Positions 2,235 through 7,236 of a stretch of DNA of 64,000 bases are shown here, in pieces (position 1 is the stretch's first letter; the number at the start of each line of letters is the position of its first letter). The notes beneath the pieces are model-generated. The model saw only the letters and a program-made list of their open reading frames with translations, searched no databases and was not told the DNA's origin. A program made the position numbers and the translations under genes. Source of the stretch: Chloroflexota bacterium (GTDB lineage Bacteria; Chloroflexota; Dehalococcoidia; Lucifugimonadales; UBA3495). The DNA is taken from NCBI GenBank assembly GCA_027623675.1, contig JAQBVF010000010.1, positions 1 to 64,000 on the forward strand. The letters run 5' to 3'.

Positions 2235-3416
2235 CTAGTCCCTCGCCAGGATGACTGTGCCGCCGCTGTGGCGCGAGCCCAAGGCCCCGCCAGTGCCGTG
2301 GCACAGGGCAATCTTGCAATCCGGCACCTGCCTTTCGGTGCCGTCGAACTGGTGCCGGAGCTGCCGGGTGGCTTCCAACAGCAGGAATAGGCCCCGCATC
2401 CCGGGGTGGTTGGAAGAAAGACCGCCACCGTCGGTGTTGATGGGCAGTTCGCCGCCCAGGCCGATGCGGCCGTTCAGAACGAACTGTCCACCTTCGCCCT
2501 TCTCGCAGAAGCCCAGGTCTTCCAAAGTCTCCAGCACCGTGATGGTGAAGGAGTCGTAGATCATGGCCATGTCGATGTCTTTCTGGGTGACGCCGGCCAT
2601 CTCGAAGGCCGGCACGTGGCTCTGCTTGGCGGCGATGTACATCAGGTCGCGTTTGCCGGCGCCCTGGTGGGCCACCGCTTCGCCCGCGCCCAGCACCCAA
2701 ACCGGGGCGTGCTTGCAGTTGCGGGCAACCTCGGGTGAGGCCACCACCACCGCGCCGCCGCCGTCGGTGATGACGCAGCAGTCGTTGCGGTGCAGCGGGG
2801 TGGATACCACCGGAGACCGCAGGACATCTGCAACGGTGATGGGGTCCCGGAATAGCGCCTCCGGGTTCAACGAGGCATGCCGGCGCATGGTTACGGCCAC
2901 CTCGGCCAGTTGCTCTGAGGTTGTCCCGTATAGGTGCATGTGCCTCTGGGCGATCATGGCGTACAGGCCAACGGTGGTCAGGCCGTATAGCTCTTCAAAG
3001 CTGTCGGGAGATGGGTCCAGCCGGGGATGACCCTGGCGGCTGATGCCGCCGGTCCCCACCGAAACGCCGCCGGAGCGTGCCTGGGTGGCGTAGGTGATGA
3101 CGGCACAATTGATGCGGCCGGCGTGGATGGCGTTCAGAGCATGGGAGAGGTGGAACTCGAAGGACCCTCCGCCCACGGTGGTGTTGTCCACCATCTTGGG
3201 ATACATGTTCAGATAGTCCGCCAGGTTCAGGCCGCTGCTTCGGACCGACATTGAGGCGCAGAACAGCCCATCAACATCCTTCTTCTCCAGTCCGGCGTCC
3301 TTCAGGGCATTGATGATGCTCTCGCCCTGAATCTGCAATTCGCTCTTATCCGGCGCGTACCGGGTGATGTGCTCGTGCACGCCGACGATCGCGGCGGCAC
3401 GCCTAAGGTCTACCAT
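2235..3416 (-). CDS. Thiolase-superfamily protein (SCP-x/Ltp2-like)
   Basis: AAIVGV, DCCVITDGGGAVVV, IYDSF, INTDGGGLS, HPG motifs; GGAGG RBS; paired with DUF35. Confidence 0.9.
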   Translation of the reverse strand: MVDLRRAAAIVGVHEHITRYAPDKSELQIQGESIINALKDAGLEKKDVDGLFCASMSVRSSGLNLADYLNMYPKMVDNTTVGGGSFEFHLSHALNAIHAGRINCAVITYATQARSGGVSVGTGGISRQGHPRLDPSPDSFEELYGLTTVGLYAMIAQRHMHLYGTTSEQLAEVAVTMRRHASLNPEALFRDPITVADVLRSPVVSTPLHRNDCCVITDGGGAVVVASPEVARNCKHAPVWVLGAGEAVAHQGAGKRDLMYIAAKQSHVPAFEMAGVTQKDIDMAMIYDSFTITVLETLEDLGFCEKGEGGQFVLNGRIGLGGELPINTDGGGLSSNHPGMRGLFLLLEATRQLRHQFDGTERQVPDCKIALCHGTGGALGSRHSGGTVILARD

Positions 3417-3526
3417 CTGCTGGAATCCTCCCTTTCGGAGAGTTTATTTTGGATTGGTAACCGTTCTCGTTCAATCTTAGTTTTCTGAGCGAACTCTTGA
3501 AATCTCGATTCCATTCGGCGCAACTA

Positions 3527-4909
3527 TCATCTGCTTGCCGAAACAATATATTCTGTCTCCATAATCCCCTTGAAACCGGAAATTCCGTAGGGGTACCTTC
3601 TCCGATTATGTTTTATTAGCCGTGGTGTTACCCCCACTTCCGAAAGGCCGCAGTTTCTCAGCATTGTGCCTAACATCCTAGATATTGGAATTCGGATACC
3701 TCGGACGACGTTATCACCGACAACCAACGTCACTTTTCCGTGTTTCTTAAGTATTCTTGGGAATTGAACCACGACTTCATTGAGTTCGACGATATACTTG
3801 CAGAGCGATTTGTATGTTGGTGCTGATATTTTTGACAAGGAATCGAGCTCATCCAAGTAGTCTGGTACGAGAAAACGACATTTCTGTACTGCTTCTTCAT
3901 CATTACCACCGGGCATAAGTCCAAGATAACTTGACCGACTTGGCGGTTGACGCTCCGGCCAAATCCACCACTGGCTGAATTTGTGAGCTCTCGGATAGTC
4001 AATCGCATTGAAATACGGTGGGGAAGTCAAAATGTAGTCGATTGATCGTTGATTCAGATTCTCCAATTCTTTTCTCGTATCGCCTTGTTTAATCTCCCAA
4101 GAGGAATGATGCTCGTCTCCCAATTTATTTATCCGTCCGAGCCGAGTTATTATTTCGTGAAATGCCTTCTTAAATACTTTACTCTGCGAAGTGACCGTCA
4201 AATCATCTCGTATTCTCCGATGTGGTCTTGAGTGATCTATGTCCATTGCTTGGCTTATCGTATTCGGCCACTTTCTGATAATCGAAGACGAGATAGCAAG
4301 AAACAATAGCGCCTGATGCCTAGCATCAGCAAATGATTGCGCGAGTCCTACGAGCATACAAAGTATGGCTCGTTGCACGGGAGCGAACCAAAAATCGATG
4401 AAATCGCCGGCAGGCACTTTGCCATCAAACCCCGCCAAAGAAAACCTTGTACCAGAGGCCCATGTACAGTCGGAAAACTCTAATTCGCACAAAGCCGCTT
4501 CGATGAGATTGAGCCGTTCACTCACTTTCGACGAAATTGTTTCTAGCTCATCTACTCCGTACGGGGTCAAAGAAACCCTCGCGATTAGACAGGCGATCGG
4601 ATCGATATCAATTCCAATGCTATTGACGCCTAGAAAACTAGCTTGAATCAATCCGGTTCCTGATCCGGCCCAGGGGTCAAGAAATCGCCCCCCTTTTTTC
4701 GCGTTTTGGCTAATTAATTCGCCCGCGAGGTCACCACCAAAGCTAGCAGCGTAAGCATGAAGTCTTACAGAAGCCTGCCGTTCAGCCACGAGGAGACGAT
4801 TCCCGGAATTTGGTTCTTGTTGCAATATTGAACTTCCCTCGACCTTGGACAATGGATGGCAAATTAAGCGATTGCGTTCCACGCGGCTAGTAGCAGATTC
4901 GATGACCAC
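3527..4909 (-). CDS. DNA amino-methyltransferase, probably N4-cytosine, motif I before motif IV
   Basis: LHAYAASF, FLDPWAGSGT (SAM-binding motif I), GIDIDPIA, ILTSPPY (motif IV), LVVGDN; exact start uncertain. Confidence 0.85.
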   Translation of the reverse strand: MVIESATSRVERNRLICHPLSKVEGSSILQQEPNSGNRLLVAERQASVRLHAYAASFGGDLAGELISQNAKKGGRFLDPWAGSGTGLIQASFLGVNSIGIDIDPIACLIARVSLTPYGVDELETISSKVSERLNLIEAALCELEFSDCTWASGTRFSLAGFDGKVPAGDFIDFWFAPVQRAILCMLVGLAQSFADARHQALLFLAISSSIIRKWPNTISQAMDIDHSRPHRRIRDDLTVTSQSKVFKKAFHEIITRLGRINKLGDEHHSSWEIKQGDTRKELENLNQRSIDYILTSPPYFNAIDYPRAHKFSQWWIWPERQPPSRSSYLGLMPGGNDEEAVQKCRFLVPDYLDELDSLSKISAPTYKSLCKYIVELNEVVVQFPRILKKHGKVTLVVGDNVVRGIRIPISRMLGTMLRNCGLSEVGVTPRLIKHNRRRYPYGISGFKGIMETEYIVSASR

Positions 4910-5475
4910 TCTTCAAATAAGGTCGAACCCCCCAAAGTACGCTGTTTCACGAATATGTCCGGATTAGCTCCCGAGGCTCCCCGGTTTCTGGCCGCTCTCT
5001 CAAACTTTTCGCGGGAATTACGCGTTGGATGAACGATGTAATTCCGCACTGCCTTGATTTCGTGAAGACCTGCCGAGCCCAATCCAAGACTAATCTCGTG
5101 ATAGTTGACAACTGAGAATTTTTGGGCCTGAGTTATCGCATAATCAGGGTCTTCCCAATGAGTTGATGGACCCGATTTGAGCGTGTCGACTAGTTTTTGA
5201 TTCGAAGGGGGTGACTTCATCGTTCCAACTCGAACCAGCATTTTGCCGAATCTTGTGAATCCATCTCCAATCGCAGACTTAAGAACGAGTTCTTTGCTGA
5301 ATTCACCCCAAAGATGTTGTAACCGGACCACAAGATGTGCCCGGCCATCCTTATGAGTCTGACTACAAAATCGAGCGGCATAAGTGTCAAATGGCGCAGG
5401 AGACAAGAACCTCTCCAGCATCAATGCGTTGCGTGCCGCGTAACGCTTGTACAGTCTCGATAGCGTGTCGGACAT
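4864..5475 (-). CDS. Hypothetical protein, HEPN-like (putative RNase)
   Basis: C-terminal RNYIVH = R-x4-H motif; N-terminal LQHLWGEF helix; ~200 aa; starts 2 nt after DUF262 stop. Confidence 0.6.
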   Translation of the reverse strand: MSDTLSRLYKRYAARNALMLERFLSPAPFDTYAARFCSQTHKDGRAHLVVRLQHLWGEFSKELVLKSAIGDGFTRFGKMLVRVGTMKSPPSNQKLVDTLKSGPSTHWEDPDYAITQAQKFSVVNYHEISLGLGSAGLHEIKAVRNYIVHPTRNSREKFERAARNRGASGANPDIFVKQRTLGGSTLFEEWSSNLLLAAWNAIA

Positions 5476-5477
5476 TA

Positions 5478-6536
5478 TTAAATTTCGTCAGGCAATAGCG
5501 CTTCGTATAGTTTCGGAAATCGTACCGAGCGGCCTCTAATTCTTTGGGTAGTGCCAGCAGATGCCAATTGGAAGGCGGCAAATCTTTCTGGTACCTCGTC
5601 AGCATCTTTACCGAGTACATCCGCGAGGGTCCCAAGGTTTGTTAGAGCCATAGTCACGTCTCCTAATGCCCGTGGATCCCTCGCCGGCATCTCATCCTTC
5701 ATGTCTCCGTCTGGAATGCCAATCAAAGAATGCGCAACCGCCGCAAATAGCATAAGAAAATGGGGCGAGCCAGCCAGGTTCGTATCGAGGATTGGATACA
5801 AATTCTCTACTATATAGCCAATTACGAGATCAACGTGCGAGGCGGTGTCGGCTGGGAGGCCTCCGTCGAATTCTTTGTATAGCGATTCGGTAAATGGTTG
5901 TCCTCCGTCAGTCACTCCTTTCAACATCACTCCAAACATCTGGGCCATCAGCTCGTCATCCGACATACGAACACGTGCCCGCCTGCTCAAGATTTTGTAT
6001 TCATCCCACAAGCTTTCCCAACGCCTCGACGATTCAACAACTTGATTTCTGAATGCTCCATGATATTTTCCATGCCTTAACTCTTGCGGGGATAAATTGT
6101 AATTATATGTATTGAGACGTTGAAATATATCGAACACAACGGAATCCGGCACATTTAGGAGTTGCTCAACGGGTACCAGATACGAGAGAAAGTTTCGCTG
6201 TGTTTCTTCGTCTAATTCTGAATAGCGTCTCCCTGCAAACTCTCCAAAGATTTCCTTTTTCGTACCCAGAGAAAACTCATCATGGGCAAAAGCTTGAATA
6301 GCTCTTAGACGTTGCTGCCCGTCAACAACCTCGCGATAACTTCGTTGAGTTTTAGGATTGGTAGTCGTTCTTACATAAATCCTGGGCATCGGCCTATCTC
6401 GCAGCACTGTGTCAATCAAATAAGCCTGTGCAGGCGGTGGCCAAACAGCGCTACCCCGCTGAAATTCCCGATTTACCACTAAGGTTTTGTCATCAAGCCA
6501 GGTCAATATGTCAGCAATCGTATATTGTTCTAGCAT
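5478..6536 (-). CDS. DUF262 (ParB/Srx-like, GmrS-type) domain protein
   Basis: EFQR..VW, YLIDTVL, VVDGQQRL, IFQRLN, LSPQELRH hallmark motifs. Confidence 0.9.
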   Translation of the reverse strand: MLEQYTIADILTWLDDKTLVVNREFQRGSAVWPPPAQAYLIDTVLRDRPMPRIYVRTTTNPKTQRSYREVVDGQQRLRAIQAFAHDEFSLGTKKEIFGEFAGRRYSELDEETQRNFLSYLVPVEQLLNVPDSVVFDIFQRLNTYNYNLSPQELRHGKYHGAFRNQVVESSRRWESLWDEYKILSRRARVRMSDDELMAQMFGVMLKGVTDGGQPFTESLYKEFDGGLPADTASHVDLVIGYIVENLYPILDTNLAGSPHFLMLFAAVAHSLIGIPDGDMKDEMPARDPRALGDVTMALTNLGTLADVLGKDADEVPERFAAFQLASAGTTQRIRGRSVRFPKLYEALLPDEI

Positions 6537-6609
6537 TGTTCAACCACCAAAAGATTTGACGAAGACGCCTACTAAAAGGAACTGAACGATTCGCACAATT
6601 TCCTAGACT

Positions 6610-6615
6610 ATTATA
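6610..6615 (-). promoter_or_regulatory. Candidate -10 box for the DUF262 cassette
   Basis: Perfect TATAAT on minus strand ~75 nt upstream of DUF262 ATG; no convincing -35. Confidence 0.4.
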
Positions 6616-6751
6616 CCGCCGACTGAAATTAGGATTACCGTACTACTATTGCGGCTATCGCTAAATTGGCAACGTGACCTTCCTATGGCAAATCAATGAA
6701 GTACCCGAAAAGAGATATCTGAAAATTGACCAGAAACTGATTAAGCGCGGG

Positions 6752-7236
6752 TTAGCCGCCGTAGTTTAGGTTGTGGTCGCGCATCAGGATTGTCTGGTCC
6801 TCGGTGCGCGTCCCGGCTTCCACGACCTCGCCCAGGAAAGGGTGTGGTTGCCCTGGTCAACCTGCCCCACGACCTTGCACTCCCACCAGGCCGGTGAGCC
6901 GGTCAGCAGGGCGCATCCAGTCTCGGGACCGGCCACGAAAGTCTGTCCGCCGAAGGAGTCGCCTTCGCGCTCCAGGGTCTTGAAGGACGTGAACGCTGTG
7001 TCGAGCTGGTCTTTGCCAATCACGTTAACGGCGAACACGCCGGTGTCGGTGATGTGGGCATGCGCGCCCGAATCGCCCTTCACGCCCACGGCCACCAGAG
7101 GCGGCGCGAACGATGTCCGGGTCAGCCAGTTTACGGTGGCGGCGCTAACCTCGCTGCCGTCCTGGTTCTTGCTGGTCAATAAGTACATCCCCTAGGGAAT
7201 CATGCGCAACGCCGTCTTCTTGGCGTCCTCGTCCAT
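6752..7236 (-). pseudogene. Flavin reductase-like protein, disrupted
   Basis: MDEDAKKTALRMIP*GMYLLT: TAG at 7192-7194 where Tyr is expected; 1-nt frameshift near 6838, after which another frame gives LGEVVEAG...LNYGG*. Confidence 0.85.

What the first reader, a model, noticed from the sequence alone, without database searches (positions are those of the whole stretch)
3527..6620. Candidate undescribed defence system: DUF262 + HEPN-like + N4-type DNA methyltransferase cassette
Seen: three co-oriented, tightly coupled genes (2-nt gap, then an overlap) in a block visibly AT-richer than both flanks, with its own TATAAT, lying between a dead flavin reductase and a thiolase. Motifs: FQR/DGQQR/FxRLN; R-x4-H (RNYIVH); DPWAGSGT + SPPY. 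Known: DUF262 is the ParB-like NTP-binding module of GmrS, SspE and several anti-phage systems; HEPN domains are often abortive-infection RNases; SPPY enzymes are mostly m4C methyltransferases. Inference: there is no HNH/DUF1524 or recognisable PD-(D/E)xK restriction nuclease, so the MTase may mark self DNA, with DUF262 sensing modification state or nucleotides and gating an RNase, i.e. methylation-linked abortive infection rather than classical R-M. I do not recognise this trio as a named system.
Basis: partly seen in the sequence, partly recalled or inferred. Interest (0 to 1): 0.85.

Follow-up and report, generated by a model that had tools for sequence, protein, structure and literature searches.

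The report
PD-T4-2-like defence pair with optional methyltransferase
A swappable three-gene cassette in a Chloroflexota genome encodes a DUF262 protein and a predicted HEPN RNase, laid out like the known anti-phage system PD-T4-2 and likely working like it, plus a predicted DNA methyltransferase that about half of its close relatives lack and that is therefore likely an optional add-on rather than the trigger.

Summary
The three genes, their motifs and the low GC (46.5% vs 62%) are real. The block is absent from this site in 13 of 13 same-genus relatives. The conserved unit is the DUF262 + HEPN pair: 154 of 176 related DUF262 loci, across many phyla, are followed by an RxxxxH gene. That layout is already named. 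PD-T4-2 is DUF262 + RiboL-PSP-type HEPN, PD-lambda-5 is ParB/HEPN + methyltransferase, and ParB + HEPN (+ methylase) operons were tabulated in 2013. This is a separate clade: 0 of 145 of its HEPNs hit the PD-T4-2_B model. The methyltransferase is accessory. It is adjacent in 16 of 31 loci of the Dehalococcoidia subclade and in 7 of 82 loci outside it. Five genomes carry an intact pair at this same site with no member of this methyltransferase family found, and purifying selection was measured in one pair of them. So obligate self-marking is not supported. What stays interesting: the window's methyltransferase lineage was found only beside the pair (7 of 7) and diverges with it. Two further lineages of the same family also sit beside this clade. 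Verdict: new variant of a known kind.

The parts
3449..6744 (.). Low-GC cassette in a variable slot upstream of the thiolase; no terminal repeats or integrase found
   Evidence: GC 0.465 vs 0.62; DNA homology to relatives stops at about 3435-3461 and 6745-6753; no cassette gene in 13 of 13 same-genus loci; repeat scan shows no end repeats
5478..6536 (-). DUF262/ParB-like protein (predicted NTPase domain, residues ~1-160) plus helical C-terminal domain; no HNH
   Evidence: Pfam GmrSD_N 1e-17; PADLOC NsnA 5e-34, PD-T4-2_A 2e-19; HHalign to PD-T4-2A-like proteins 99.95% over 311 columns; AF2 pLDDT 94.8; Foldseek top hits BrxU (E 9e-5) and ParB CTPases
4864..5475 (-). Predicted HEPN RNase, RiboL-PSP-like, R144-N145-x3-H149
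   Evidence: R144/N145/H149 invariant in 5 similarity-found proteins; 21 of 145 family members hit PF18735; nearest named ESM Atlas cluster is RiboL-PSP-HEPN, 0.92; AF2 pLDDT 92.8; top structural hit HEPN toxin 7ae2, Z 8.1, rmsd 5.3 over 131
3527..4909 (-). Predicted amino-DNA methyltransferase, motif I before motif IV (alpha order), SPPY, likely m4C; real start probably 4825 or 4789
   Evidence: Pfam N6_N4_Mtase 1.4e-10; PADLOC MTase_II 2.9e-22; TSPPY in 115 of 120 homologues; dN/dS 0.14 for G449/G519
6610..6615 (-). TATAAT, possible -10 box without a recognised -35
   Evidence: Sequence; not called by the promoter scan
6752..7236 (-). Flanking flavin reductase pseudogene (host gene, not part of the system)
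   Evidence: PF01613; TAG at codon 15 and 1-nt deletion
2235..3416 (-). Flanking thiolase (host gene; downstream anchor of the slot)
   Evidence: Pfam; 94-97% identical in same-genus relatives

Best explanation
The cassette's conserved core is a DUF262 + predicted-HEPN gene pair laid out like PD-T4-2, in which the DUF262 protein likely senses phage infection and likely switches on the predicted HEPN RNase to cut RNA and halt phage growth, while the predicted m4C methyltransferase is likely an optional add-on, not a required self-mark. Shown here: gene order and domains; near-universal pairing of this DUF262 family with an RxxxxH gene; co-divergence of the two; loss or exchange of the methyltransferase; turnover of the cassette at one chromosomal slot. 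Inferred from relatives: NTP binding at FQR/DGQQR/RLN and DNA binding by the C-terminal domain (BrxU, SspE, NsnA); a trigger such as modified or foreign DNA; RNase activity; and abortive rather than direct defence. The methyltransferase likely descends from type II restriction-modification enzymes and has been co-inherited with the pair in one Dehalococcoidia clade.
For: 154 of 176 DUF262 loci have a next ORF with R[NHD]xxxH; 11 end at or near a contig end and 11 are split, interrupted, cut or different. DUF262 aligns end to end with PD-T4-2A-like proteins. PD-T4-2B is RiboL-PSP-type and an H127A mutant of it was built, the same Pfam family that this HEPN family hits. DUF262-HEPN similarity matrices correlate at rho 0.79 over 14 loci. 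The methyltransferase is adjacent in 16 of 31 clade loci and 7 of 82 outside. G451, G507, G514, G433 and G541 (93-98% complete) hold an intact pair at this same slot and have no match to the methyltransferase at E<=1e-20. Pair-only copies are under purifying selection: G451/G507 dN/dS 0.07 and 0.24; G539/G456 0.16 and 0.25. Sister methyltransferases sit beside NgoMIV-type REases in 6 of 19 loci and beside MORC-type ATPases in 4 of 19.
Against: The window's methyltransferase lineage was adjacent to the pair in 7 of 7 hits found from the methyltransferase side and tracks DUF262 within 9 trios (rho 0.80). Three lineages of one methyltransferase family sit beside this one DUF262 clade, which is more than a simple passenger model predicts. 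Pair-only genomes carry 4-36 other N6/N4 methyltransferase matches, so self-marking by another enzyme is not excluded. The HEPN link to PD-T4-2B is weak (HHalign 26%; 0 of 145 hit PD-T4-2_B), and the DUF262 scores higher on NsnA than on PD-T4-2_A. Neighbours are mostly housekeeping genes, not defence islands. No activity was measured.
Confidence: 0.58

Rival explanations
1. Methylation-gated RNase: the methyltransferase marks a host site, DUF262 reads the unmethylated site on incoming DNA and fires the HEPN. Pair-only hosts are covered by another methyltransferase with the same site.
For: 7 of 7 exclusivity of the methyltransferase lineage; co-divergence within trios; three couplings of one methyltransferase family to one DUF262 clade; orphan copies of the sister lineage at a second slot, as left by R-M decay; 5 pair-only loci of genus g236 and G463 have a sister methyltransferase elsewhere; PD-lambda-5 as precedent.
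Against: 15 of 31 clade loci, and most loci outside it, lack an adjacent methyltransferase. Five intact same-slot pairs have no family member in the genome. DUF262-methyltransferase correlation falls to 0.14 across all 14 coupled loci. No avoidance of GCCGGC or CCGG inside trio cassettes (low power).
Confidence: 0.22
2. PrrC-like guard: the pair monitors the methyltransferase, or SAM/R-M function in general, and releases the HEPN when a phage anti-restriction factor (DNA mimic, SAM lyase) interferes.
For: PMC3710099 proposes this for R-M-linked HEPNs (passage). PD-lambda-5 is described as a compacted RM+Abi system. It fits a loose, exchangeable methyltransferase partner.
Against: There is no REase to guard in the cassette, and tblastn found no NgoMIV-like or MORC-like gene in G000 with one query each. 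The same paper notes that HEPNs fuse to nucleases and ATPases, not to methylases.
Confidence: 0.1
3. Selfish toxin-antitoxin cassette: DUF262 only neutralises the HEPN toxin, the cassette persists by addiction, and it has no anti-phage role.
For: Two tightly coupled genes that co-diverge; presence on plasmids (15 records) and viral contigs; few defence neighbours.
Against: Catalytic DUF262 motifs are invariant in 148 sequences. Frequent clean loss and allele swapping at the slot fit defence turnover better than addiction. The layout-matched PD-T4-2 protects in its native strain.
Confidence: 0.1

Closest known systems
PD-T4-2 (Vassallo 2022, PMC9519451)
   Same: Two genes, DUF262 then RiboL-PSP-type HEPN, no HNH; DUF262 proteins align over 311 columns; RNxxxH motif.
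   Different: Separate, long-branched DUF262 clade (28% identity over 189 columns); HEPN about 205 aa vs 167 aa and not matched by the PD-T4-2_B model; PD-T4-2 has no methyltransferase.
PD-lambda-5 (Vassallo 2022)
   Same: ParB-like + HEPN + DNA methyltransferase, without a classical REase.
   Different: There ParB and HEPN are one protein, the top ParB hit is ParBc rather than DUF262, and the methyltransferase is D12 class. No PD-lambda-5 model appeared among the listed PADLOC hits (25 of 54 methyltransferase rows shown).
ParB + RiboL-PSP-HEPN and ParB + MAE_28990-HEPN + methylase operons (Anantharaman 2013, PMC3710099 Table 1)
   Same: The same domain associations, predicted by computation.
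   Different: This HEPN family hits RiboL-PSP (21 of 145) far more often than MAE_28990 (2 of 145). The methylase link was listed for MAE_28990.
Menshen (NsnABC)
   Same: Best PADLOC score for the DUF262 (NsnA, 5e-34); DUF262 + helical DNA-binding domain as proposed sensor; solitary methylases noted near some Menshen loci.
   Different: No NsnB ABC-ATPase and no NsnC; the HEPN follows directly.
GmrSD / BrxU / SspE
   Same: DUF262 motifs; BrxU is the top structural hit.
   Different: No DUF1524/HNH nuclease; the predicted effector is an RNase on a separate gene.

Membership tests
PD-T4-2 | Gene A: DUF262 protein without HNH, homologous to PD-T4-2A | tested here: met
   PD-T4-2_A HMM 2.2e-19; HHalign 99.95%, 311 columns; NsnA scores higher
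PD-T4-2 | Gene B directly downstream: HEPN of RiboL-PSP type with RxxxxH | tested here: met
   2-nt gap
PD-T4-2 | Gene B matches the PD-T4-2_B model / is orthologous to PD-T4-2B | tested here: not met
   0 of 145 family members hit it at E<=1e-3; HHalign 12.6% to PD-T4-2B and 26% to 7 PD-T4-2B-like proteins
PD-T4-2 | Protects against phage, dependent on the HEPN histidine | not testable with these tools
   Needs a phage challenge
PD-lambda-5 | Fused ParB-HEPN protein plus D12-class methyltransferase | tested here: not met
   Separate genes; N6_N4_Mtase with SPPY
Menshen | NsnB ABC-ATPase and NsnC after NsnA | tested here: not met
   The next genes are the HEPN and the methyltransferase
GmrSD/BrxU type IV restriction | DUF1524/HNH domain with DUF262 | tested here: not met
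   No Pfam hit at E<=1; the modelled C-terminal half is all helical
HEPN superfamily | Rx4-6H motif conserved in the family | tested here: met
   (found by similarity); 154 of 176 next ORFs. Alignment A4 was selected on the motif, so its invariance is not independent evidence
HEPN superfamily | HEPN helical fold | tested here: inconclusive
   The best hit is a HEPN toxin (Z 8.1, rmsd 5.3, 131 aligned) and several HEPN chains rank in the top 13, but generic helical bundles score within 1 Z; Foldseek gave nothing at E<=1e-3
MAE_28990 ParB-HEPN-methylase operon | HEPN belongs to MAE_28990 (PF18737) | tested here: inconclusive
   2 of 145 members at E about 0.007, against 21 for PF18735
Type II m4C methyltransferase | Motif I and SPPY motif IV intact and conserved | tested here: met
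Type II m4C methyltransferase | Makes m4C at a defined DNA site | not testable with these tools
   Needs a methylome; 'SPPY implies m4C' is recalled knowledge

The most novel reading that the evidence does not exclude
In one Dehalococcoidia clade, a PD-T4-2-type DUF262-HEPN pair has taken the place of the restriction nuclease in a type II R-M system. A dedicated m4C methyltransferase marks self DNA, and unmethylated sites on phage DNA switch on an RNase instead of a DNase: restriction-modification logic with an RNA-cutting, abortive output. Pair-only hosts would rely on another methyltransferase with the same site.
Probability: 0.22. Interest if true: 0.75.

Novelty: new variant of a known kind. 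Interest (0 to 1): 0.42.

Why it matters
The trigger of HNH-less DUF262 systems such as PD-T4-2 was called largely uncharacterised in 2025 (PMC12065111, passage). This clade offers a natural experiment: the same pair, at the same chromosomal slot, with and without a co-inherited methyltransferase. Trio versus pair-only alleles would test directly whether DUF262 reads methylation state. The wider pair family (366 HEPN representatives at 50% clustering) is not called as a complete system by the 2023 PADLOC models, so it is probably an uncounted defence family. If the methyltransferase proves to be a passenger, this is simply a new PD-T4-2-like clade.

Tried and rejected
Single-sequence Pfam, PADLOC and NCBIfam scans of the middle ORF gave nothing useful. 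A PDB sequence search with its profile gave 0 hits, and Foldseek gave none at E<=1e-3. Complex prediction of DUF262 with HEPN (1:1, with alignments) returned no verdict, score 0.00 against a mark of 0.32; this is neither support nor evidence against binding. The wide structural search for the DUF262 model had not finished when the budget ended, so the fold of its C-terminal domain is unassigned. Palindrome avoidance gave no target: GCCGGC 13 observed vs 11.9 expected in 9 trio cassettes, and O/E 0.86 in the genome. No terminal repeats were found, and promoter and terminator hits were at chance level. The idea that the insertion killed the flavin reductase was rejected. A motif-only methyltransferase scan missed true members and was replaced by an HMM. 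A viral scan for PD-T4-2A relatives gave 1 fragment. The careful ML tree did not finish: one search is the quick tree, and searches are FastTree. The 20 weakest viral loci (L204-L223) were dropped before all counts. G516 (split DUF262) was left out of the clade tree and G546 (partial) was not fetched. I did not scan the rest of the 64-kb window for defence genes and did not look at sequencing reads.
Full report
OBSERVATION. Two details are weaker than stated. The HEPN/methyltransferase overlap depends on the most upstream start codon. The TATAAT has no recognised -35, and promoter hits are at chance level. The nearest named relatives are titled Dehalococcoidia. 'SAR202-like' is my own reading of the gene content, not a tool result.

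THE SITE. I fetched DNA upstream of the orthologous thiolase from 15 relatives. None of the 13 same-genus loci, and neither of the 2 from other families, has any cassette gene. In 8 of the 13 the flavin reductase lies about 200 nt from the thiolase; in 5 it is gone. It carries stops in L014 and L018 too. In other genera of the family the same slot (F420 oxidoreductase to thiolase) is filled: the trio in G449, G519 and G506, and the pair alone in G451, G507, G514, G433, G541 and G458 (HEPN split). The cassette is far more diverged than its flank: G507/G514 thiolase dS is 0.12, while DUF262 pS exceeds the 0.62 print cut-off. I infer allele exchange by recombination in the flanks. Neighbours of the closest loci are mostly metabolic, with scattered transposases, resolvases and relaxases (53 neighbour proteins scanned). 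This is a slot, not a defence island.

THE CORE PAIR. In 154 of these 176 the next ORF carries R[NHD]xxxH. Eleven end at or near a contig end, and 11 are split, interrupted, cut or different. Hosts include Pseudomonadota, Bacteroidota, Actinomycetota, Cyanobacteriota and others. The middle protein has no direct Pfam hit. However, 21 of 145 family members hit HEPN_RiboL-PSP (best E 5.5e-7), 3 hit HEPN_Swt1 and 2 hit HEPN_MAE_28990. The nearest named ESM Atlas cluster is RiboL-PSP-HEPN (0.92; family on 28% of members). The model (pLDDT 92.8) ranks a HEPN toxin first (Z 8.1) among helical bundles of similar score. Alignment A4 was chosen on the motif, so its invariant R144/H149 is circular; the 5 proteins found by similarity also keep it. 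The DUF262 model (pLDDT 94.8) has a ParB/BrxU-like N-terminal half and a helical C-terminal half with conserved T330/R336/R339.

THE METHYLTRANSFERASE. It has alpha motif order, TSPPY in 115 of 120 homologues and dN/dS 0.14 in the one unsaturated pair. In a 401-genome class draw and a 151-genome family draw, all 7 hits at 38% identity or more, other than the window's own, lie beside the pair, one of them convergent. By shared contig length, a rough lower bound, 18 of 30 DUF262 homologues at 65% identity or more share a contig with such a methyltransferase; at 55-59% it is 1 of 23. All trios fall in one DUF262 clade (support 99-100). Of its 31 evaluable loci, 9 carry this lineage, 3 a second lineage downstream, 4 a third lineage upstream and 15 none (L113 is too short to judge). 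Outside the clade, 7 of 82 loci have any methyltransferase-like ORF adjacent (scored by HMM or motif, a different method; kin are not independent). On the methyltransferase tree the second lineage nests among MORC-linked enzymes. The third nests among orphans; family members are found in 20 of 21 genomes of one genus and 14 of 17 of another. Other sisters pair with NgoMIV-type REases (6 of 19 loci). Within 9 trios the three genes co-diverge (rho 0.80-0.85). Across all 14 coupled loci tested, DUF262-HEPN stays at 0.79 but DUF262-methyltransferase drops to 0.14. So the dependence is one-way: this methyltransferase lineage was not seen without the pair, but the pair is often without it. Five same-slot pair-only genomes have no family member at E<=1e-20, yet they carry 4-36 other N6/N4 methyltransferase matches, so cover by another enzyme cannot be excluded.

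MECHANISM. Most likely (0.58) the DUF262 protein is a nucleotide-dependent sensor of infection that gates a HEPN RNase, as assumed for PD-T4-2, and the methyltransferase is accessory. Sensing, NTP use, RNase activity and abortive outcome are all inferred from BrxU, SspE, NsnA and HEPN precedent. Rivals: methylation-gated RNase (0.22), PrrC-like guard (0.10), addiction module (0.10).

COMPARISON. I located PD-T4-2 in E. coli and collected six DUF262 + HEPN relatives from plasmids. Gene A is homologous end to end but forms a separate long-branched group. Gene B shares only the first helix and the RNxxxH region and misses the PADLOC model. So the cassette likely works like PD-T4-2 but does not pass as a strict member. 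PD-lambda-5 already combines ParB, HEPN and a methyltransferase in another form.

LITERATURE SEEN. PMC9519451: passages plus supplementary Tables S1 and S2, parts of S3, and single rows of S4 and S6-S8. Figures are not held, so I do not know whether PD-T4-2 scored as abortive, nor what the H127A mutant did. Passages only: PMC3710099 (including Table 1; its Additional file was not read and may list these operons), PMC10952713, PMC12065111, PMC10853773, PMC12839542, bioRxiv 2024.01.29.577857 and 2024.10.26.620412 (bioRxiv supplements are closed). Six full-text searches listed no paper that, from its title, abstract start or the passages read, describes this clade or trio. The library lacks most subscription papers, and PADLOC is the 2023 version.

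VERDICT. Real, and a new variant of a known kind. Interest 0.42; 0.75 if the methyltransferase proves to gate the RNase (probability about 0.22).

Noticed in passing
L287, L289-L292, L304, L306-L308: A second slot in this family: a sister methyltransferase sits alone in some genomes, with DUF262-HEPN beside it in others, and the pair is alone in L292. Gene sizes suggest the same flanks; I did not confirm this by alignment.
   Followed up: partly
G handles of genera g236 and g245: An alpha-class SPPY methyltransferase (about 30% identical to the window's) is in 20 of 21 and 14 of 17 genomes, mostly without a recognised REase in the loci viewed; a possible conserved orphan epigenetic enzyme.
   Followed up: partly
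L229, L232, L233, L237, L240, L242: NgoMIV-type restriction enzymes paired with an SPPY amino-methyltransferase (NgoMIV's own partner being a C5 enzyme is my recall).
   Followed up: no
L231, L238, L239, L241, L288: The same methyltransferase family beside ~860-940 aa MORC/HATPase_c_3 proteins.
   Followed up: no
P0005: A 303-aa protein joining the HEPN N-terminal part to the methyltransferase C-terminal part; a deletion fusion or an assembly error.
   Followed up: no
L032:8323-9717; L294:5341-7278: Insertions into the pair: a DDE transposase between DUF262 and HEPN, and a 645-aa ORF splitting DUF262.
   Followed up: no
window:7504-9518: Cupredoxin-like + gluconolactonase-like gene split over two ORFs; present in full in only 2 of 13 same-genus loci, so this side of the slot is also variable.
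   Followed up: no
window:7440-7474: A 17-bp inverted repeat (94% complementary) just downstream of the 7504-9114 gene; possibly a terminator.
   Followed up: no
G541: 36 N6/N4 methyltransferase matches in one 4-Mb genome, against 4-17 in its kin.
   Followed up: no
L144:8023-9075; L173:1516-2511: DUF262 relatives followed by 330-350 aa ORFs without the RxxxxH motif; possibly alternative effectors.
   Followed up: no
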